NCBI RefSeq assembly: GCF_004010195.1
Contig: NC_057760.1
Span: 2,862,745 to 2,920,747, forward strand
DNA length: 58,003 nt
Direction: 5' to 3'
Origin: Chiloscyllium plagiosum
Lineage: Eukaryota
Positions 3,795-57,090 of the stretch are shown piece after piece; within the stretch, counting starts at the first letter, position 1; every line of letters starts with the position of its first letter. The notes beneath the pieces are model-generated. The model was not told the DNA's origin. It made no database searches and was given only the letters and a program-made list of their open reading frames with translations. The position numbers and the translations under genes were made by a program.

Positions 3795-3935
3795 TGCAGA
3801 AACACAAACAGAAATGGCTGGAAAAGCTCAGCAGGCCTGTCAGAAAGTTTTGTTCTGAAGAAAGGTCACTCGACCCGAAACGCTAACTCTGATATCTCTC
3901 CACGGACTATGCCAGACCTGCTGAGCTTTTCCAGG
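3795..3935 (+). mobile_element. Foldback element with hammerhead-like core, interrupted by a SINE
   Basis: ctggaaaagctcagcagg is inverted as cctgctgagcttttccag. CUGAAGA-AAGGUCACUCGACCC-GAAAC-GCUA lies at 3855-3885. Confidence 0.6.
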
Positions 3936-24904: not shown

Positions 24905-26740
24905 GAGTCGTAGAGACTTACAGAAACAGACTCTTCAGTTCAACTCATCCATGCCGACCACATCTTAGATAAATTTAGTCCCATTTGCCAGCATTTAGCC
25001 TACATCCCTCTAAACCCTTCTTATTCATATACCCATCCAGATGCCCTTTAAATGTTGTAATGTACCAGCCTCCACTGCTTCCTCTCGTAGCTCATTCCAT
25101 ACACCACCACCCTCTGTGTGAAAAAAGCTGCCCCTTAGGTCCCTTTTAAATCTTTTCTCTCTCACCTTAGTTTTAGACTCCCCCATCCCAGAGAAAAGAC
25201 CTTGTCTATTCATCCTATCCATGGCCCTCATGATTTCATAAACCTTCAACCTCCGACGCTCCAGCCTATTCAGCCTCTCCCCACAGCTCAAACCCTTCAA
25301 AATCTGGCAACGTCTTTGTCAGTCTTTTCTGAACTCTTTCAAGTTTCACAACACCCTTTCTATGGCACAGAGACCAGAACTGCACATAATATTCCAAAAG
25401 TGGCCTAACCAATGTCCTGTGCAACCACAGCATAACCTCACAACTCCCATATTCAATGTACTGATCAATAAAGGCACACAATAAAGGCAAGTATACCAAA
25501 TGCCTTCTTCACTATCCTATTACCTGCAACTCCACTTTCAAGGAACTGAACTTACACTCAAAGGTCTCTTTGTTCAGCAACACTCCCCAGGACCTTGCCA
25601 TTAAGCGTATAAGACCTGCACTGATGTGCCTTTCCAAAATGCAGCACCTCACATTTATCTAATTAAACTCCTGCCACTACTTGGCCCATCTGATCAAGAT
25701 CCCATTGTGTTTCACTGTCCACTATACTTCCAATTTTGGTGTCAACTGCAAACTTACTAACCATACCTCCTATATAGAAGTCCCTTCTCCCTACCTTTTA
25801 TCTTAGCCTGCTTGGCACACCTTCCTCATTCCTGAAGGGCTTATGCCCGAAACATCAATTCTCCTGCTCCTTGGATGCTGCCTGACCTGCTGCGCTTTTC
25901 CAGCAACACATTTTTCAGCTCTGATCTCCAGCATCTGCAGTCCTCACTTTCTCCTCCTATATACACATCCAAAGCATTGATCCTTGTGGCACACCACTGG
26001 CCACCAGTCTCCAATCTTAAAAGAAACCATCCACCACCACCCTCTGATTTCTACGTTTGAACCATTTCTGTATCTAAATGGCTAGTTTTCCCTTTATTCC
26101 ATGTGATCTAATCTTGCTAAACAGTCTACCCTGAGCAAGCTTGTTGAACGGGTCACTGAAGTCCATGTAGATCATGTCCACCGCTCTGCCCCCATCAATC
26201 TTCATTGAGTTTTTTGAAGAAGTAATCAAGTTATTGAGATACAATTTCCCACACACAAAGCCATGACAACTATCACTATGACTATGAGTCTTTGCCATTC
26301 CAAACACATGTAAATCCTGTCCCCCAGGATGTCCTCCAACAACATGCTCACCACTGTTGTCAGACTTAATCTATAGTTCCAAAGCCACAGCCTGCTTAGC
26401 CTCTTCCTGTAACTCAAACTCTAGTCCTGGCAACAACATCCTTGTAAATCTTTTCTGTACCCTCTCAAATTTAACATCCTTTCTGCAGAAGGGTGACCAG
26501 AATTGTACACAATATTCTGAAAGTGGCCTCAGCAATGTACAGCCTTAACATGGCATCCCAACTCCTATAGTCAGTACACTGACCAATGAAGGCAGGCACA
26601 CTAAACTCCTTTTTCAACACTCTGTCTACCTGAGACCGTAGGGCACTTTCTCTGGCAACAGTCCCTAGAGCCACCATTAACTGTATAAGCCCCACCCTGG
26701 TTTCCCTTACCAAAATGCAACATCTCGCATTTATCGAAAA
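24905..26740 (-). mobile_element. CR1-type LINE fragments in PMF1 intron 3
   Basis: LVRPLLEYYVQFW, IDGGRAVDMIYMDFS..LFSKIRSHGI, DKCEMLHFGK. Confidence 0.8.
25777..25952 (+). mobile_element. Penelope 3'-end fragment with a degenerate hammerhead, nested in CR1
   Basis: cctgaagggcttatgcccgaaacatc (3-nt core deletion) plus the family terminus, flanked by a CCTCCTATATA direct repeat. Confidence 0.7.
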
Positions 26741-30695: not shown

Positions 30696-30920
30696 CTGGA
30701 TTAGAGTGGTGCTGGAAAAGTACAGCAGGTCAGGCAGCATCCAAAGAGCAGGAAAATCGACGTTTTGGGCAAAAGCCCTTCATCAGGAATTCCTGATGAA
30801 GGGCTTTTGCCCAAAACGTCAATTTTCCTGCTCCTTGGATGCTGCCTGACCTGCTGTGCTTTTCCAGCACCACTCTAATCCAGACTCGGGTTTCCAGCAT
30901 CTGCAGTCCTCGTTTTTACC
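30696..30920. mobile_element. Palindromic Penelope-derived insertion (188-bp inverted repeat 30696-30883) nested in a CR1 3' end
   Basis: Centre GAATTC at 30787-30792. Both arms read CUGAUGA-AGGGC-UUUU-GCCC-AAAAC-GUC, i.e. GAAA is mutated to AAAA. Confidence 0.85.
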
Positions 30921-31469
30921 TAAACTCATCCCACCTGCCTGCTCCTATCCCCTATCCCTTCAAACCTTTCTTATTCAAGTACTTATCCAAGTGTCTTTTA
31001 AACATATCCACATCCACCACATCCTCAAGAAATTTATGACACATGCGAACCACCCTCTGTCCAAAACATTTGCGCCTCGCATCTTTTTAAAATCTGACTC
31101 CTCTCACCTTAAAATTGTGCCTCCTGGTCTTGAAATTCCCCCATCCTTGGGAAAAAGACAACTATTATTAACTCTATCTCTACCCTTTGTTATTTTATAA
31201 ACTTCTATATGGTCACCTCTCAATGTCTGACATTCCAGTGAAAGACACTTGTAATAAGGTAGATTGAGCAATAGGGCCGGTTCACAGACAGTTTAAAACA
31301 TGGTGATTACAAATTTACATTTCTTTGAGACTCAAAAATCTTGTCAGGAAGGTAGTTTAACCACGGTAATTGACAGAAATTAAAAGATTGCATTAGACGA
31401 AAGAAATAAAGTTGCCAAAATATTACGAAGACCGATGACTGGGAACATTTTCGACTTCAGCAGAATAGG

Positions 31470-31649
31470 GACGAAGAGTGTGGTGCTGGAAACGCACAGT
31501 TGGCCAGGCAGCATCCAAGGAGCAGGAGAGTTCAACACTTCGAGCATACGTTGACTCTCCTGCTCCTCGGATGCTGCCTGACCGGCCGTGTTTTTGTAGC
31601 ACCACACTCTTCGATTTTGATATCCAGCATTTGCAGTCCTCACTTTCTC
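31470..31649. mobile_element. Older palindromic Penelope-derived insertion with ~15-bp TSD
   Basis: CTTCAGCAGAATAGG (31455-31469) versus CTTCAGCAAAATAGG (31650-31664), with diverged inverted arms. Confidence 0.75.
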
Positions 31650-31892
31650 CTTCAGCAAAATAGGACCAAGAAACTGATAAAGAGGAAAATAGAACATTAA
31701 ACTAGTGAAAAACACAAAATAGATGGCAAAAGATTTGGTAGGAAGGCAAACAAAGAACCACACAACACAGCTATTTGGCCCATTGAGCCTATTCCATTTC
31801 TTTGACAGAGCTATTAATTTTGAACCAATTGATCAAGTAACAAATTTGACAACAGCCAGAAATTTTAATAAACAGGGTTCTTCATTGCTCAC

Positions 31893-31998
31893 CTGGATAG
31901 AGGTCTGGAGTTGAGAAATAAGCTGCTTGTAGACACTATGTGTGAACTGTGGCTGAATTTTGTAAACAGGTTGAAAGCACTGAGCAAACCTCTCAAAG
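31893..31998 (-). CDS. PMF1: PMF1 exon 2
   Basis: ag|C TTT GAG...ATC CAG|gtgag, 106 bp. SFERFAQCFQPVYKIQPQFTHSVYKQLISQLQTSIQ resembles human SYQRFTDCYKCFYQLQPAMTQQIYDKFIAQLQTSIR. Confidence 0.93.
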
Positions 31999-32409
31999 CT
32001 ACATATGGAGGGAAGAAAAACAGGGTACCATGCCCTCAATTATTAAAACATATCCATCAAGCAACCGTCAGTGTGAAAATCAAAACAAATACACAAAATA
32101 AAGTAATCAGATTCATTTCAAATTTAGAGGTGGAGTAAATTACCAGCAGTTGCTATTAGTTGACCACATATGCCAAAGGCCAATGAACAACCTAGTTTGC
32201 GGATATTGAGGCATTTAAAGAGCTCAAGCAGAACACACACTGCTTGCAGATAGGATTGATCTGACAGAGTATTCGGAGACAGAGCAGTAATCAAATCAGC
32301 AGTGTCAAAATCCTGCAACTCCCTTCCAAATCTGGACGTACAACAGATGGAGTGCATTGATTCACACCTTCTCAAGGGCAGTAAATACTGGGTTGATCTT
32401 GCTTATGAC

Positions 32410-33260: not shown

Positions 33261-33414
33261 TGAACGGGCAATCTAAACAGGTAGCCCCGATGTAAGGAGG
33301 TTCTCTCAAAGGGTACATTCCTAATGTAGGGGGAATTCCTTAAAAGGAGTAGACCCAGTACAAGGGGGATTCTTTAACGGCACAGCAGGTCAGGCAGCAT
33401 CCAGGGAACAGGAG

Positions 33415-33450
33415 ATTCGACGTTTCGGGCACAGGCCCTTCTTCAGGAAT
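33415..33450 (-). ncRNA. Minimal type I hammerhead ribozyme motif (mirror copy)
   Basis: Reverse-complement arm of the same palindrome, with an identical core. Confidence 0.72.
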
Positions 33451-33484
33451 TCCTGAAGAAGGGCCTGTGCCCGAAACGTCGAAT
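33449..33484 (+). ncRNA. Minimal type I hammerhead ribozyme motif
   Basis: AUUC-CUGAAGA-A-GGGC-CUGU-GCCC-GAAA-C-GUC-GAAU: intact catalytic core, 4-bp stem II, 4-bp stem I and palindromic ACGU in place of stem III, as in Penelope-type minimal hammerheads. Confidence 0.75.
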
Positions 33485-33799
33485 CTCCTGTTCCCTGGAT
33501 GCTGCCTGACCTGCTGTGCTGTTCCAGCAATAAAGTTTCAACTTTGATCTCCAGCATCTGCAGACCTCACTTTCTCCTCGGATTCTTTAACGGGCCAATT
33601 CTAGTGTCAGCAGGCATTTCCCCATTGTAATGGGGATCCCACAATGGTGTAGTCTCTGTGTATGAACCCTTAAAAAAGGGAATCTCTGGGCAAGGGGTGA
33701 TTCTTTAAAGTTAAAGATGTATTCCTTAAAGGGGCAGGACCTTATAGAGGTGTACCCCTTGAGGGACAATCCAAACACAAGGGGCTTTTCATCAAAGGG

Positions 33800-34487
33800 T
33801 CAGGTATCCCTTAAAGGGGCAGTGCCAATGCAATACGGGCAGTTGTCCCTTAAAGGGGCAGTGCCAATGCAACACAGGCAGGTATCCCTTAAAGGGGCAG
33901 TGCCAATGCAACACAGGCAGGTCTCCCTTAAAGGGGCAGTGCCAATGCAACACGGATAGGTATCCCTTAAAGGGGCAGTGCCAGTGTAACACGGGCAGGT
34001 ATCCTTTAAAGGGGCAGTGCCAGTGTAACACAGGCAGGTATCCCTTAAAGGGGCAGTGCCAATGCAACACGGATAGGTATCCCTTAAAGGGGCAGTGCCA
34101 ATGTACACAGATAGGTATCCCTTAAAGGGGCAGTTCCAGTGTAACACGGGCAGGTATCCCTTAAAGGGGCAGTGCCAATGCAACACAGGCAGGTATCCCT
34201 TAAAGGGGCAGTGCCAGTGTAACACGGGCAGGTATCCTTTAAAGGGGCAGTGCCAATGCAACACAGGCAGGTATCCTTTAAAGGGGCAGTGCCAGTGTAA
34301 CACGGATAGGTATCCCTTAAAGGGGCAGTGCCAGTGTAACACGGGCAGGGTTTCCCTTAAAGGGGCAGTTCCAGTGTAACACGGGCAGGTTTCCCTTAAA
34401 GGGGCAGTTCCAGTGTAACACGGGCAGGTTTCCCTTAAAGGGGCAGTGCCAGTGTAACACGGGCAGGGTTTCCCTTAAAGGGGCAGT
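33800..34487. repeat. 39-bp minisatellite abutting the PMF1 exon 1 donor
   Basis: Unit TATCCCTTAAAGGGGCAGTGCCAATGCAACACGGGCAGG (~17 copies), with decayed copies back to ~33280. Confidence 0.93.
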
Positions 34488-34501: not shown

Positions 34502-34740
34502 CTGGCGGTTTCTAGAAGCTTCTCCACTGTGGTATCTATCGCCGCCTTGAACAGTCTCAGCCTTTTTGAGTCCGAGGCCGGAGTGTCCGCCCCCGATCCG
34601 GATGAAGTGTCCAGACCCGTGGACGGCGGGGTTACCTCTCCCCGCTCCCCCTCAGGCGGGGCGGCCTCCGAGCTCTCCCGCCCTCCCTCGGGGGTGACCG
34701 TTACTCCGCTCCCTCTCCTCTCGCCGCTCTCGAGCTCCAT
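34502..34740 (-). CDS. PMF1: PMF1 (polyamine-modulated factor 1 / Nnf1, MIS12 complex) exon 1
   Basis: ATG at 34740 in a CpG island. Ends ...KRLRLFKAAIDTTVEKLLETA-AG|gtaac, matching the human PMF1 segment RVKLLDTMVDTFLQKLVAAG. Confidence 0.9.
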
Positions 34741-36624: not shown

Positions 36625-36808
36625 TGAAAATGCGTTGCTGGAAAAGCGCAGCAGGTCAGGCAGCATCCAGGGAACAGGAGAATCGACGTTTCGGGCATAA
36701 GCGAAACGTCGATTCTCCTGTTCCCTGGATGCTGCCTGACCTGCTGCGCTTTTCCAGCAACACATTTTCAGCTCTGATCTCCAGCATCTGCAGACCTCAC
36801 TTTCTCCT
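36625..36808. mobile_element. Palindromic Penelope-derived insertion with truncated centre and 14-bp TSD
   Basis: GTCTTTTCAGTAGC at 36611-36624 and 36809-36822. The inverted arms meet at ...GACGTTTCG GGCATAAG CGAAACGTC, so the CUGANGA half is absent. Confidence 0.85.
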
Positions 36809-41215: not shown

Positions 41216-44200
41216 ATCCACGCACCGGCCCCGTTTCCCCCCTCCCCCACAGCGTATCCACGCACCGGCCCCGTTTCCCCCCTCCCCCACAGCGTATCCA
41301 CGCACCGGCCCCGTTTCCCCCCTCCCCCACAGCGTATCCACGCACCGGCCCCGTTTCCCCCCTCCCCCACAGCGTATCCACGCACCGGCCCCGTTTCCCC
41401 CCTCCCCCACAGCGTATCCACGCACCGGCCCCGTTTCCCCCCTCCCCCACAGCGTATCCACGCACCGGCCCCGTTTCCCCCCTCCCCCACAGCGTATCCA
41501 CGCACCGGCCCCGTTTCCCCCCTCCCCCACAGCGTATCCACGCACCGGCCCCGTTTCCCCCCTCCCCCACAGCGTATCCACGCACCGGCCCCGTTTCCCC
41601 CCTCCCCCACAGCGTATCCACGCACCGGCCCCGTTTCCCCCCTCCCCCACAGCGTATCCACGCACCGGCCCCGTTTCCCCCCTCCCCCACAGCGTATCCA
41701 CGCACCGGCCCCGTTTCCCCCCTCCCCCACAGCGTATCCACGCACCGGCCCCGTTTCCCCCCTCCCCCACAGCGTATCCACGCACCGGCCCCGTTTCCCC
41801 CCTCCCCCACAGCGTATCCACGCACCGGCCCCGTTTCCCCCCTCCCCCACAGCGTATCCACGCACCGGCCCCGTTTCCCCCCTCCCCCACAGCGTATCCA
41901 CGCACCGGCCCCGTTTCCCCCCTCCCCCACAGCGTATCCACGCACCGGCCCCGTTTCCCCCCTCCCCCACAGCGTATCCACGCACCGGCCCCGTTTCCCC
42001 CCTCCCCCACAGCGTATCCACGCACCGGCCCCGTTTCCCCCCTCCCCCACAGCGTATCCACGCACCGGCCCCGTTTCCCCCCTCCCCCACAGCGTATCCA
42101 CGCACCGGCCCCGTTTCCCCCCTCCCCCACAGCGTATCCACGCACCGGCCCCGTTTCCCCCCTCCCCCACAGCGTATCCACGCACCGGCCCCGTTTCCCC
42201 CCTCCCCCACAGCGTATCCACGCACCGGCCCCGTTTCCCCCCTCCCCCACAGCGTATCCACGCACCGGCCCCGTTTCCCCCCTCCCCCACAGCGTATCCA
42301 CGCACCGGCCCCGTTTCCCCCCTCCCCCACAGCGTATCCACGCACCGGCCCCGTTTCCCCCCTCCCCCACAGCGTATCCACGCACCGGCCCCGTTTCCCC
42401 CCTCCCCCACAGCGTATCCACGCACCGGCCCCGTTTCCCCCCTCCCCCACAGCGTATCCACGCACCGGCCCCGTTTCCCCCCTCCCCCACAGCGTATCCA
42501 CGCACCGGCCCCGTTTCCCCCCTCCCCCACAGCGTATCCACGCACCGGCCCCGTTTCCCCCCTCCCCCACAGCGTATCCACGCACCGGCCCCGTTTCCCC
42601 CCTCCCCCACAGCGTATCCACGCACCGGCCCCGTTTCCCCCCTCCCCCACAGCGTATCCACGCACCGGCCCCGTTTCCCCCCTCCCCCACAGCGTATCCA
42701 CGCACCGGCCCCGTTTCCCCCCTCCCCCACAGCGTATCCACGCACCGGCCCCGTTTCCCCCCTCCCCCACAGCGTATCCACGCACCGGCCCCGTTTCCCC
42801 CCTCCCCCACAGCGTATCCACGCACCGGCCCCGTTTCCCCCCTCCCCCACAGCGTATCCACGCACCGGCCCCGTTTCCCCCCTCCCCCACAGCGTATCCA
42901 CGCACCGGCCCCGTTTCCCCCCTCCCCCACAGCGTATCCACGCACCGGCCCCGTTTCCCCCCTCCCCCACAGCGTATCCACGCACCGGCCCCGTTTCCCC
43001 CCTCCCCCACAGCGTATCCACGCACCGGCCCCGTTTCCCCCCTCCCCCACAGCGTATCCACGCACCGGCCCCGTTTCCCCCCTCCCCCACAGCGTATCCA
43101 CGCACCGGCCCCGTTTCCCCCCTCCCCCACAGCGTATCCACGCACCGGCCCCGTTTCCCCCCTCCCCCACAGCGTATCCACGCACCGGCCCCGTTTCCCC
43201 CCTCCCCCACAGCGTATCCACGCACCGGCCCCGTTTCCCCCCTCCCCCACAGCGTATCCACGCACCGGCCCCGTTTCCCCCCTCCCCCACAGCGTATCCA
43301 CGCACCGGCCCCGTTTCCCCCCTCCCCCACAGCGTATCCACGCACCGGCCCCGTTTCCCCCCTCCCCCACAGCGTATCCACGCACCGGCCCCGTTTCCCC
43401 CCTCCCCCACAGCGTATCCACGCACCGGCCCCGTTTCCCCCCTCCCCCACAGCGTATCCACGCACCGGCCCCGTTTCCCCCCTCCCCCACAGCGTATCCA
43501 CGCACCGGCCCCGTTTCCCCCCTCCCCCACAGCGTATCCACGCACCGGCCCCGTTTCCCCCCTCCCCCACAGCGTATCCACGCACCGGCCCCGTTTCCCC
43601 CCTCCCCCACAGCGTATCCACGCACCGGCCCCGTTTCCCCCCTCCCCCACAGCGTATCCACGCACCGGCCCCGTTTCCCCCCTCCCCCACAGCGTATCCA
43701 CGCACCGGCCCCGTTTCCCCCCTCCCCCACAGCGTATCCACGCACCGGCCCCGTTTCCCCCCTCCCCCACAGCGTATCCACGCACCGGCCCCGTTTCCCC
43801 CCTCCCCCACAGCGTATCCACGCACCGGCCCCGTTTCCCCCCTCCCCCACAGCGTATCCACGCACCGGCCCCGTTTCCCCCCTCCCCCACAGCGTATCCA
43901 CGCACCGGCCCCGTTTCCCCCCTCCCCCACAGCGTATCCACGCACCGGCCCCGTTTCCCCCCTCCCCCACAGCGTATCCACGCACCGGCCCCGTTTCCCC
44001 CCTCCCCCACAGCGTATCCACGCACCGGCCCCGTTTCCCCCCTCCCCCACAGCGTATCCACGCACCGGCCCCGTTTCCCCCCTCCCCCACAGCGTATCCA
44101 CGCACCGGCCCCGTTTCCCCCCTCCCCCACAGCGTATCCACGCACCGGCCCCGTTTCCCCCCTCCCCCACAGCGTATCCACGCACCGGCCCCGTTTCCCC

Positions 44201-45824
44201 CCTCCCCCACAGCGTATCCACGCACCGGCCCCGTTTCCCCCCTCCCCCACAGCGTATCCACGCACCGGCCCCGTTTCCCCCCTCCCCCACAGCGTATCCA
44301 CGCACCGGCCCCGTTTCCCCCCTCCCCCACAGCGTATCCACGCACCGGCCCCGTTTCCCCCCTCCCCCACAGCGTATCCACGCACCGGCCCCGTTTCCCC
44401 CCTCCCCCACAGCGTATCCACGCACCGGCCCCGTTTCCCCCCTCCCCCACAGCGTATCCACGCACCGGCCCCGTTTCCCCCCTCCCCCACAGCGTATCCA
44501 CGCACCGGCCCCGTTTCCCCCCTCCCCCACAGCGTATCCACGCACCGGCCCCGTTTCCCCCCTCCCCCACAGCGTATCCACGCACCGGCCCCGTTTCCCC
44601 CCTCCCCCACAGCGTATCCACGCACCGGCCCCGTTTCCCCCCTCCCCCACAGCGTATCCACGCACCGGCCCCGTTTCCCCCCTCCCCCACAGCGTATCCA
44701 CGCACCGGCCCCGTTTCCCCCCTCCCCCACAGCGTATCCACGCACCGGCCCCGTTTCCCCCCTCCCCCACAGCGTATCCACGCACCGGCCCCGTTTCCCC
44801 CCTCCCCCACAGCGTATCCACGCACCGGCCCCGTTTCCCCCCTCCCCCACAGCGTATCCACGCACCGGCCCCGTTTCCCCCCTCCCCCACAGCGTATCCA
44901 CGCACCGGCCCCGTTTCCCCCCTCCCCCACAGCGTATCCACGCACCGGCCCCGTTTCCCCCCTCCCCCACAGCGTATCCACGCACCGGCCCCGTTTCCCC
45001 CCTCCCCCACAGCGTATCCACGCACCGGCCCCGTTTCCCCCCTCCCCCACAGCGTATCCACGCACCGGCCCCGTTTCCCCCCTCCCCCACAGCGTATCCA
45101 CGCACCGGCCCCGTTTCCCCCCTCCCCCACAGCGTATCCACGCACCGGCCCCGTTTCCCCCCTCCCCCACAGCGTATCCACGCACCGGCCCCGTTTCCCC
45201 CCTCCCCCACAGCGTATCCACGCACCGGCCCCGTTTCCCCCCTCCCCCACAGCGTATCCACGCACCGGCCCCGTTTCCCCCCTCCCCCACAGCGTATCCA
45301 CGCACCGGCCCCGTTTCCCCCCTCCCCCACAGCGTATCCACGCACCGGCCCCGTTTCCCCCCTCCCCCACAGCGTATCCACGCACCGGCCCCGTTTCCCC
45401 CCTCCCCCACAGCGTATCCACGCACCGGCCCCGTTTCCCCCCTCCCCCACAGCGTATCCACGCACCGGCCCCGTTTCCCCCCTCCCCCACAGCGTATCCA
45501 CGCACCGGCCCCGTTTCCCCCCTCCCCCACAGCGTATCCACGCACCGGCCCCGTTTCCCCCCTCCCCCACAGCGTATCCACGCACCGGCCCCGTTTCCCC
45601 CCTCCCCCACAGCGTATCCACGCACCGGCCCCGTTTCCCCCCTCCCCCACAGCGTATCCACGCACCGGCCCCGTTTCCCCCCTCCCCCACAGCGTATCCA
45701 CGCACCGGCCCCGTTTCCCCCCTCCCCCACAGCGTATCCACGCACCGGCCCCGTTTCCCCCCTCCCCCACAGCGTATCCACGCACCGGCCCCGTTTCCCC
45801 CCTCCCCCACAGCGTATCCACGCA
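41216..45824. repeat. Perfect 40-bp tandem array (~115 copies) in SCAMP3 intron 2
   Basis: Unit CGCACCGGCCCCGTTTCCCCCCTCCCCCACAGCGTATCCA with no variant visible. There is no stop codon on either strand. Confidence 0.97.
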
Positions 45825-46900: not shown

Positions 46901-48662
46901 CTCTGACAACAAGGAAAGCTCCGCTTTCAGTGTGACTGCGACATCTTTTCCGTCCAATTTGAGAGCAGGCCTAGTTTCATGGAGAGCACCTCAAACAGTG
47001 TGGCACTCCTTTAGGCCTGTGCTAATATAGACAGCCTGCAGGAAGTTCTGAAGCCTCTGGAGATTCAGCAATTGGAAATAAACACAGAAAGCTTTTTCAA
47101 CAGACCCAAGGCTCACCTTCATTCAGTCTCAGGGTGGAGATGGAGATGGAGATCTGAATTCTGATAGTGTTAAGCTGAAAGGCTTGCAAATAGACAGGGT
47201 GCACAGGCAAACAGCTGAAGCTTAGTCTGATCAGACTTTTTCCTCAGATGGTGATGGCTAGCATGAGGGGACATAGCTTTAAATTGAGGGGTGATAGATA
47301 TAGGACAGATGTCAGAGGTAGTTTCTTTACTCAGAGTAATAGGGGCGTGGAATACACTGCCTGCAACAGGAGTAGACTCACCAACTTTAAGGGCATTTAA
47401 ATGGTCATTGGATAGGCATTTGCACGAGAATGGAATAGTGGGTTAGATGGGCTTCAGACTGGTTCCACAGGTCGATGCAACATTGAGGGCTGAAGGGCCT
47501 GTGCTGTGCTGTAATGTTCTATGTATAAACGCAGGAGCACAATCAACAATGCATCACAGGGAAAAGCACTGCAGGGACTCAGTTCCCCCAACACCTTCCA
47601 AAATCATTCCACACCAGATTCCCTTTCTGGGCTGAATTAATGACAGTTTCTCCTGGTCTTGTGGAAGAAGGAGTCAACGTTTTTGCTCCTGATGGCCTTC
47701 AAGCAACACACATTTGTGGCAGGAGGCGATGAGAATGGAACTATGCCAGCTGTGATGCACTTTGGGGCTAAATTATCCGTCTCATAGAATAGCCTCAGTT
47801 CCTAGAAGCTGGCCAAAGGCTGGGGAAACACTCATAGCATCTTCGTTCTTATACATTCCATAACAGCTTCCTCCACTGAATGGGTTTTGTACTTATCCAT
47901 TAAGACTGACAGCTCTCTCCATAGTCTAGGCACAGCATTCCTACCTAAGCCCAGCTCCAGTCACTGTACCACCATCCTGCTCATGGTGACTACTGCAATG
48001 AAATACAGAGCTGCCGCAAATTTCAATTCAAGCTGCTTTAAGAGGTTGCAATTTCTCATTTTCCCAGGATTATACACTGAACTGGAAGTTAGACTACTGT
48101 AACTGGAATACCAGGGAGGCTTTGCAATTTGAAAAATAAAGCTGAGCTGTGCAATACCATGTTGGAAGCAATAAGCGGGGAAATTTGAAACTGAACTTTT
48201 GAGTTAAAGAAATTCTGCCTAGCAACAGCCCCTGATTGAACAGTCTAGAGTTCAAAAAGCCGTTAACACCAAAATTAAATGGGAGAAGAAAAACATTCAG
48301 AGCCTACAGACAGATACCACCCTTGTTTCTCTCTGTGGAGGAGAAAGACAGATGGTTCAAGAAAGCTTAAATGAACCGCTGCAGCTCCCTGCTGTGGGCT
48401 GATCCACAATGCTGAATTCCCTCTCTAACAGACTGCACACAAACTGCAGTGGTCACTGTCACCTCAAGGGGAAACTAGGGACGATCAATACATGCTGGCC
48501 AGCCAACGATGCCCAGATCCCAAGAATGAGTGAAAAACAAATCCCACTTCACCTGGACAACATTGACATTGAAGACTGACATCACTGAAAATATCAGAAG
48601 GAAAGAATGATTTGAACTTCCATCCACAGAACTGGTTTCACCCTGTCTGGATTCTTTGACCA

Positions 48663-48796
48663 GGAGACAGTGAGGACTGCAGATGCTGGAGATCAGAGCT
48701 TAAAAATGTGTTGCAGGAAAAGCGGAGCAGGTCAGGCAGCATTCAAGGAGCAGGAGAATCGACGTTTCGGGCATAAGCCCTTCTTCAGGAATCTTT
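48663..48796 (-). mobile_element. Short non-palindromic Penelope-derived insertion with 13-bp TSD
   Basis: GATTCTTTGACCA at 48650-48662 and 48797-48809. Same terminus as the other family members. Confidence 0.8.
48757..48792 (-). ncRNA. Minimal hammerhead ribozyme motif in SCAMP3 intron 2, sense to the pre-mRNA
   Basis: Reverse complement reads AUUC-CUGAAGA-A-GGGC-UUAU-GCCC-GAAAC-GUC-GAUU. Confidence 0.68.
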
Positions 48797-54060: not shown

Positions 54061-54398
54061 TCCCCCTTGTCCAGAACATTCTTCAAGTGGACATTGTCCT
54101 TGAGCCCATCATGGCAGTTGGGGAATGGAAGGGGGTTGGGGGGGGGCTACCTGATTAGAGAGAGATTTGATGTGATATGGTTTGATTTGATTTATCGTTG
54201 TCACTTGTACCTCGATCCAGTGAAAAGTTTTATTTTGTGCGCAGTACATGTAGATAATATAAGGATCAATTGGGTGATTGTAGGGGTAACATTGGACAGG
54301 TCAAGGAATACAAAGAATGTGCGTAAAAAGCATGGTCAACGTTAGAGTTGAAATTGAGAGTCAATAGTAGAGCGATGCTTGAAAAGCAAGAATAGGAA

Positions 54399-54434
54399 AA
54401 TCGACGTTTCGGGCAAAAGCCCTTCATCAGGATC
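54399..54434 (-). ncRNA. Minimal hammerhead motif in an inverted terminal-repeat fragment upstream of the Penelope copy
   Basis: Reverse complement reads GAUC-CUGAUGA-A-GGGC-UUUU-GCCC-GAAAC-GUC-GAUU, an intact core with a 4-bp stem I. Confidence 0.7.
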
Positions 54435-56436: not shown

Positions 56437-57090
56437 GGGGTTCTGTCCCACTTTCTATTTGTGTGCCTTGGTCTGTTAAGGTGGGGGATATAATTTCCAG
56501 TTCTTTTTCACAGAGGTTGGTAAAGGGGGTCCAAATCGGTGTGTTTATTGATGGATTTCCGGCCCTCTAGGAATTCTCTGTTTAGCCTGTTCTAGGATGG
56601 ATGTGTTGTCCCAGTCAAAGTGGTGTCCTTCTTTGTCTGTGTGTAAGGATACTAATAATAGCTGGTCATGTCTTTTGGTGGCTAGTTGGTGTTTGTGTAT
56701 CCTGGTGACTAGTTTCCTGCCTCTCTGACCAATGTAGTGTTTGTTGCAGGCCTTGCATGGTAGTTTTTTAAATGACATTTGTTTTGCTGTTTGCTGGTAC
56801 AGGGTCCTTTAGGTTCATCAGTAGCTGTTTCAGTGTGTTGGTAGGTTTGTGCGCTACCATGATGCCCCATTTGCCAACCTCTGAAAAAGAACCAGAAATG
56901 GTATCACCCTCACCTTCACAGACTGAGACACACAAATAGAAAGTGGGACAGAACACCAGTGCTTCACCAGAGACTCACTGATGATGTTACCGAGTGTGGT
57001 GACGAAACATCTGAAAATAAACTTTCCAGCTCAGTGAGCTAACTTATAACCTGAACCTCAACTCGAGTTACAAATCTTCTCAAAAATCGC
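56437..57090 (-). mobile_element. Second Penelope family: RT-end/GIY-YIG remnant with inverted terminal repeat
   Basis: KPTNTLKQLLMNLKDPVP..NVI and KLPCKACNKHYIGQRGRKLVTRIHKHQLATKRHD..HHFDWDNTSILEQ. Positions 56440-56465 recur inverted at ~56929-56954. Confidence 0.85.
56975..57014 (+). ncRNA. Minimal hammerhead motif of the second Penelope family
   Basis: UCA-CUGAUGA-U-GUUACC-GAGUGU-GGUGAC-GAAA-C-AUC-UGA: 6-bp stem II and 3-bp stem I. Confidence 0.65.

What the first reader, a model, noticed from the sequence alone, without database searches (positions are those of the whole stretch)
33367..33593. Tiny palindromic retro-insertion encoding an intact hammerhead ribozyme on each strand
Seen: a ~200-bp insert with a perfect 14-bp TSD and a perfect 140-bp palindrome. 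Each arm reads CUGAAGA-A-GGGC(CUGU)GCCC-GAAAC-GUC with a 4-bp stem I. Established: Penelope-like elements carry minimal type I hammerheads whose palindromic stem III suggests cleavage as dimers, and they often have inverted 5' terminal-repeat copies. Inference: this is a young, non-coding, ribozyme-bearing mobile unit in PMF1 intron 1. A transcript through it could fold into a 70-bp hairpin (a dsRNA/ADAR/Dicer substrate) that masks the ribozyme, or cleave if folding is co-transcriptional.
Basis: partly seen in the sequence, partly recalled or inferred. Interest (0 to 1): 0.72.

Follow-up and report, generated by a model that had tools for sequence, protein, structure and literature searches.

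The report
Mirror-image Penelope retrotransposon stub, shark
This 199-base hairpin in a shark gene's first intron is a recent insertion of two back-to-back ends of a Penelope-type jumping gene, one of thousands in this genome and a known layout; its ribozyme is predicted to be locked shut, and the lopsided ends of such copies suggest each was likely built on the spot from one RNA copied twice.

Summary
It is the hammerhead-bearing end (pLTR plus 'tail') of a Neptune-type Penelope-like element (PLE); longer copies encode RT and GIY-YIG. A 40-mer of the arm occurs 15,451 times, the exact centre at 178 loci. The empty site stands in contigs of two public DNA runs, so the insertion is young. Inverted pLTR, one-sided tail and TSD are published PLE features. 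Added here: in 72 of 72 young head-to-head pairs with both ends at the family's two usual end points, one arm ends near +131 and the other near +95; about half of the copies stop just upstream of the ribozyme, with no excess at its cut site. This favours both nicked target strands priming on one RNA (inferred), not a self-copying palindrome. The antisense arm is always transcribed first, so co-transcriptional cleavage is predicted to be blocked. The scan has noted this layout before in this and other genomes (66 notes).

The parts
33367..33380 (.). Left copy of the 14-bp target-site duplication
   Evidence: empty allele holds one copy
33381..33450 (-). Short inverted arm, element positions +1 to about +70 (+1 = A of ATTCC); ends early at a 4-of-5 microhomology with the TSD end, not at the usual +95
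33415..33450 (-). Minimal type I hammerhead motif on the minus (PMF1 sense) strand; predicted cut 3' of C33419; predicted masked in the hairpin
   Evidence: sequence
33449..33450 (.). Centre: self-complementary AT shared by both arms (2-nt overlap junction)
   Evidence: overlap of 2 in 43 of 43 exact-centre pairs
33449..33579 (+). Long arm, element positions +1 to +131: pLTR end with hammerhead plus tail
33449..33484 (+). Minimal type I hammerhead motif, + strand; predicted cut 3' of C33480
   Evidence: sequence
33544..33579 (+). PLE 'tail' (+96 to +131), between the family's two 3' end points
   Evidence: 3' end counts peak at +94/95 and +129-131
33580..33593 (.). Right copy of the 14-bp target-site duplication
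34504..34740 (-). PMF1 coding exon 1 (context)
31893..32000 (-). PMF1 exon 2 (context; edge approximate)

Best explanation
This is a young, gene-less insertion of two head-to-head copies of the hammerhead-bearing end of a Neptune-type Penelope-like retrotransposon, likely built at the moment of insertion when both nicked target strands primed reverse transcription on one element RNA. Shown: parentage, copy number, youth, end statistics. Inferred steps: the GIY-YIG domain nicks both strands about 14 bp apart; one 3' end primes at +131, the other at +95 (here at +70, by microhomology); both cDNAs run off at the RNA's 5' end at +1 (likely a transcription start in the pLTR); the two cDNA ends join through 0-3 nt of overlap or a few added bases; repair gives TSD, long arm and short arm. 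The copy is likely a dead end: in any read-through RNA, PMF1 pre-mRNA included, it would fold into a 70-bp hairpin that masks the ribozyme.
For: Parent: the arm continues into an ORF start downstream and follows a GIY-YIG C-terminus upstream; RT PF00078 E 5e-11 in L203 and 5e-6 in L202, GIY-YIG PF01541 E 6e-5 in L186, whose pLTR is 96% like the reference arm and whose translation shows a CxxxxCxxC linker, the Neptune/Nematis mark in PMC8557442. Asymmetry: set A (76 insertions on C1) 39 pairs: 35 long+short, 4 long+shorter, 0 long+long, 0 short+short; set B (44 exact-centre loci) 43 pairs: 38, 4, 1 other, 0, 0; unpaired arms 18 long, 19 short; 72 of 72 has p about 2e-22 under free choice at 0.5. 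TSD mode 14-15 bp. 5' edge: 8,970 matches start at ATTCC, 4,353 carry 10 more upstream bases. The short arm reaches further 5' than the long arm in 21 of 29 untied pairs, p 0.024. L062 carries the same 8-nt deletion in both arms. In vitro, an anole PLE protein cuts and extends both target strands and starts RT at two sites that bracket the tail (PMC11167929). Empty site in X1 and X14 contigs. Hairpin -184 kcal/mol for a 280-nt host-strand stretch.
Against: No direct evidence that +1 is a transcription start: the one RNA run with reads showed no pile-up of ends. In older pairs the rule is looser: 18 long+short, 2 short+short, 1 long+long of 21, with a cruder cut-off and decayed ends. Variants shared by both arms could come from gene conversion. 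The in vitro data are for a Poseidon-clade element, not this one. The focal short arm ends at +70, not +95. No intact full-length ORF was seen: all 20 long copies fetched hold N gaps. Samples are the first listed matches, mostly on C1, selected for an exact 40-mer.
Confidence: 0.7

Rival explanations
1. Self-priming (fold-back): one cDNA or an antisense RNA folds back at its 3' end and is copied, giving the inverted arm, as proposed for rotifer Penelopes.
For: Junction overlaps of 1-3 nt in 20 of 39 set A pairs; arms share variants; proposed in PMC3846280 (Discussion read).
Against: Fold-back of the long cDNA predicts that the long arm is the complete one, but the short arm is more complete in 21 of 29; fold-back of the short cDNA cannot make the tail; 15 of 39 junctions have extra bases; unpaired copies end at +95 as often as at +131, so +95 is a start point in its own right. 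The antisense-RNA version is not excluded.
Confidence: 0.2
2. The palindrome is a non-autonomous element (SINE- or retrozyme-like) that is transcribed and copied as a unit.
For: 178 loci share the exact 42-bp centre; short tandem hammerhead arrays of the family exist (L225); PLE-derived retrozymes are described (10.64898/2026.07.22.740005).
Against: The exact centre is about 1% of arm matches (178 loci against 15,451 matches); junctions range from 3-nt overlap to 27 added bases and arm ends vary; short arms that end early do so at target microhomology; no promoter lies inside a masked 199-nt hairpin that I could show.
Confidence: 0.07
3. The hammerheads are active here and cut PMF1 pre-mRNA or regulate it.
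For: Core and stem II are kept across subfamilies while loop II varies (CUGU, AUGU, UUAU, UUUU); full 4-bp stem I in the young subfamily.
Against: Conservation reflects the source elements, not this copy; the antisense arm precedes the ribozyme and stem II probability is below 1e-14; single minimal motifs showed no cleavage in vitro (PMC4209133) and the anole motif needed the PLE protein (PMC11167929); the site is empty in other genomes; copies show no excess of 5' ends at the cut site.
Confidence: 0.03

Closest known systems
EN+ Penelope-like element insertions with inverted pLTR, one-sided 30-40 bp tail and TSD (Pen2a_Av of Adineta vaga, PMC3846280; general scheme PMC8557442 Fig. 2 legend; D. 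virilis Penelope PMC2377424)
   Same: Head-to-head inverted terminal copy, palindromic junction, tail on one side only (36 bp here), TSD, hammerhead in the pLTR.
   Different: No ORF between the arms; 199 bp; TSD 14 bp against 8-10 bp in A. vaga; thousands of copies; arms start at one fixed point just before the ribozyme.
Minimal PLE hammerheads (min-HHR, PMC4209133)
   Same: Intact core, bulged base before stem II, G-C closing pair, 4-bp stem I, palindromic ACGU with no loop III; that paper also notes dual motifs 100-700 bp apart on opposite strands.
   Different: Stem II is 4 bp, not 7-8 as in Schistosoma; the two motifs abut and are fully complementary, so they cannot form the same-strand dimer.
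PAc (Poseidon of Anolis carolinensis) in vitro system (PMC11167929)
   Same: Two 3' end points bracketing the tail; both strands cut and extended; hammerhead cleavage not needed for insertion, as the flat 5' ends at the cut site suggest here.
   Different: Other clade (Neptune-type linker here); ORF starts after the tail, not in stem II; the two sections I read do not address pairing of the two start sites in one insertion.
Non-LTR retrozymes (10.64898/2026.07.22.740005; PMC7229834 seen in listing only)
   Same: PLE-derived, non-coding, type I hammerhead.
   Different: Retrozymes are head-to-tail tandems with same-strand ribozymes; this is head-to-head and masked.

Membership tests
EN+ Penelope-like element (insertion product) | Parent ORF with RT and C-terminal GIY-YIG joined to this terminus | tested here: met
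   RT in L202, L203; GIY-YIG in L186; arms flank these ORFs; middle of each long copy lies in N gaps
EN+ Penelope-like element (insertion product) | pLTR with hammerhead motif | tested here: met
   Rfam models do not score it
EN+ Penelope-like element (insertion product) | Optional 30-40 bp tail at one end; inverted 5' copy; TSD | tested here: met
Neptune/Nematis clade | CX2-5CxxC linker before GIY-YIG plus CCHH motif | tested here: met
   seen by eye in the L186 translation; definition from PMC8557442
Neptune/Nematis clade | RT phylogeny | not tested
Minimal type I hammerhead ribozyme | Conserved core, stems I and II, NUH site, palindromic stem III | tested here: met
   sequence
Minimal type I hammerhead ribozyme | Compensatory changes in stems | tested here: inconclusive
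   within this family stem II is invariant and loop II varies; older subfamilies have a U-U mismatch in stem I; different paired stems occur only in other families
Minimal type I hammerhead ribozyme | Self-cleavage | not testable with these tools
   needs in vitro assay; predicted masked in this copy
Non-LTR retrozyme | At least two head-to-tail units with same-strand hammerheads | tested here: not met
   focal copy is head-to-head; a tandem array of the family exists elsewhere (L225)
Self-propagating non-autonomous element (SINE/MITE-like) | Copies share fixed internal structure inherited from a master | tested here: not met
   junctions and arm ends vary; no full tree of copies was built

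The most novel reading that the evidence does not exclude
PLE integration is a coordinated twin-priming reaction: a dimeric RT-endonuclease nicks both strands about 14 bp apart and starts two cDNAs at the two tail-bracketing sites of one RNA. When this happens on the 5' leader, both run off at the transcription start and are joined head to head. This would explain the inverted pLTR and the one-sided tail of the whole class, with thousands of shark mini-palindromes as the record.
Probability: 0.5. Interest if true: 0.6.

Novelty: new member of a known kind. Interest (0 to 1): 0.33.

Why it matters
The single copy is most likely inert. As a class, these stubs give a large natural data set on an open question, how PLEs build inverted termini and a one-sided tail, which PMC8557442 calls still undefined. 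The strict long+short pairing and the fixed 5' edge are direct predictions for the existing in vitro PLE system. About half of the young insertions sampled are near-perfect hairpins, so the genome likely holds thousands of intronic dsRNA sources, and presence/absence sites like this one can serve as population markers.

Tried and rejected
DNA search of the own genome with the whole insert found nothing because common words are skipped; patterns were used instead. Rfam: no hammerhead model matched. Sequence look-up in earlier findings: none. No RNA holder listed for the locus. RNA lay on the pLTR: X22 laid 0 reads (no test); X21 laid 1,129 reads, 92% running on into unlike sequence, no pile-up of starts or ends; one T>C site (162 of 321 against 17 of 98) is confounded by subfamily variants and perhaps one expressed locus, so editing and the transcription start are untested. 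X4 and X8 contigs do not bridge the site: allele state unknown. Hammerhead cut site as 5' end: by-eye tally of the 100 listed matches: about 28 near-full copies set aside (the pattern filtered one position fewer than planned), and of 72 truncated ones 6 start at +33 and 3 at +34, against a mean of 4.5 per position over +24 to +39; rejected. Polymerase skipping of the hairpin as source of the empty site: judged unlikely, since the X1 contig has single-copy depth and 4 other differences, and the X14 contig from another organism label is also empty. Literature searches for shark Penelope palindromes and for twin priming in PLEs listed no paper on either by title or abstract; Repbase, subscription journals and supplements were not seen.

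Full report
Observation. The TSD (14 bp, 33367-33380 and 33580-33593), the perfect palindrome (33380-33519) and the two hammerhead motifs are in the sequence as described. Rfam scores no hammerhead here; the motif is recognised by its core and stems, and one arm alone folds into the hammerhead form. PMF1 lies on the minus strand; the insert sits between coding exons 1 and 2. The window's PMF1 is identical to a protein named Chiloscyllium plagiosum PMF1 by its source.

Abundance. Six other places in the 58-kb window match the insert. In the genome an exact 40-mer of the arm has 15,451 matches, a second 40-mer 17,458, the exact 42-bp centre 178 loci and the tail-to-ORF junction 129 matches.

Parent. 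Numbering from the A of ATTCC (33449) as +1, longer copies continue past +131 into an ORF and are preceded by the end of a GIY-YIG domain. Twenty long copies were fetched; all have N gaps. Of 8 open stretches scanned, 2 matched RT (L203 E 4.7e-11, L202 E 5.1e-6); of 2 more, L186 matched GIY-YIG over the cut-off (E 6e-5) and L202 weakly (E 0.1). L186 shows the CX2-5CxxC linker and CCHH pattern by eye, which PMC8557442 (passages read) assigns to Neptune/Nematis. No RT tree was built.

Ends. Set A is 76 insertions taken from the first 100 matches (first 24 Mb of C1); set B is 44 of the 178 exact-centre loci; one locus is in both. In set A, 39 are adjacent head-to-head pairs and 37 are not (one of these, L135, is a pair with a 135-bp foreign spacer inside one TSD; one 'pair', L143, is mis-paired). 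3' ends cluster at +94/95 and +129-131. Pairs: 35 long+short and 4 long+shorter in A; 38, 4 and 1 other in B; none long+long or short+short. Unpaired arms are 18 long and 19 short, so free choice would give half the pairs matching ends; 72 of 72 unlike has p about 2e-22. In 21 older pairs the count is 18, 2 short+short, 1 long+long. TSDs peak at 14-15 bp. 5' ends: 55 of 112 arms start within -2 to +3, 32 at +4 to +20, 22 further upstream; genome-wide 4,617 of 8,970 matches lack the exact next 10 upstream bases. The context TCATTCC fits an initiator consensus (recalled, not from a call); Penelope promoters with Inr-like starts in the pLTR are described (PMC2377424 and PMC3846280, passages read). 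There is no excess of 5' ends at the ribozyme's cut site (by-eye tally: 6 of 72 at +33).

Junctions. Overlap of 1-3 nt in 20 of 39, blunt in 4, added bases in 15. The short arm reaches further 5' in 21 of 29 untied pairs (p 0.024), as expected if the +131 cDNA trails the +95 cDNA on the same RNA, and not if the long cDNA folded back. L062 has one 8-nt deletion in both arms. Short arms that stop before +84, the focal one included, end at microhomology with the target in the cases viewed.

Youth. In run X1 (organism A) one contig joins 33366 directly to 33580, and in X14 (organism B) one joins 33367 to 33581; X4 and X8 do not bridge the site. The site is therefore empty in at least one genome under the label that best holds this DNA, and in a relative.

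Mechanism. PMC11167929 (parts 1-2 of 4 read) shows in vitro that a PLE protein nicks and extends both strands, starts RT at two internal sites that bracket the tail, is predicted to be a dimer, and does not need hammerhead cleavage. Joined with the counts above, the simplest account is twin priming on the 5' leader of one RNA, run-off at +1 and end-joining. Each of these steps is inferred. Self-priming on an antisense template (PMC3846280, Discussion read) remains the main rival.

Ribozyme. Core and stem II are kept while loop II varies across subfamilies, which points to selection in source elements. In this copy the antisense arm is transcribed first on either strand; stem II probability stays below 1e-14 in the prefixes tested. 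Single minimal motifs did not cleave in vitro (PMC4209133, parts 1-2 of 4 read). RNA data gave no test of editing or cleavage.

Novelty. The layout is published for PLEs; my five searches listed nothing on shark copies or on coordinated use of the two start sites, within the limits of the library. The retrozyme preprint (part 1 of 5 and passages read) does not mention sharks in its main text. Earlier notes of this scan report the same layout and a like model in this and other shark genomes; my reading was noted before I saw them, and they are not independent support. Verdict: real, young, a new member of a known kind; modest interest for the mechanism it makes testable.

Noticed in passing
window 30710-30922, 36625-36808, 31480-31651, 25828-25956, 48662-48792, 54390-54432: Older subfamilies of the same PLE end: palindromic (30710, 36625 with 14-bp TSD, 31480) and single-arm copies.
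   Followed up: partly
window 3851-3899 (+) and 56978-57014 (+): Hammerhead motifs of two other repeat families with different stem II sequences; likely other PLE families.
   Followed up: no
L225 (G000:C8:24157200-24159200): Head-to-tail array of five 194-224 bp units, each with the hammerhead on the same strand: a retrozyme-like tandem that could form the active dimer. Similar pairs at L032/L033 and L037-L039.
   Followed up: partly
L135:410-800: Long and short arm enclose 135 bp of unrelated sequence inside one 14-bp TSD: capture of foreign sequence between the arms.
   Followed up: partly
L062:about 1390-1650: Both arms carry the same 8-nt deletion, which begins exactly at the hammerhead cut site (+33 to +40).
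   Followed up: no
window 41216-45824: 115 copies of a 40-bp GC-rich unit at 100% match: a very young or assembly-inflated tandem array upstream of PMF1.
   Followed up: no
window 33801-34487: 39-bp minisatellite, 17.6 copies, in PMF1 intron 1; the insertion's target resembles a decayed unit.
   Followed up: no
L186, L201, L202: The PLE ORF has a long Ala/Thr/Pro-rich, partly tandem linker after its N-terminal domain, recalling the low-complexity inserts of rotifer Penelopes.
   Followed up: no
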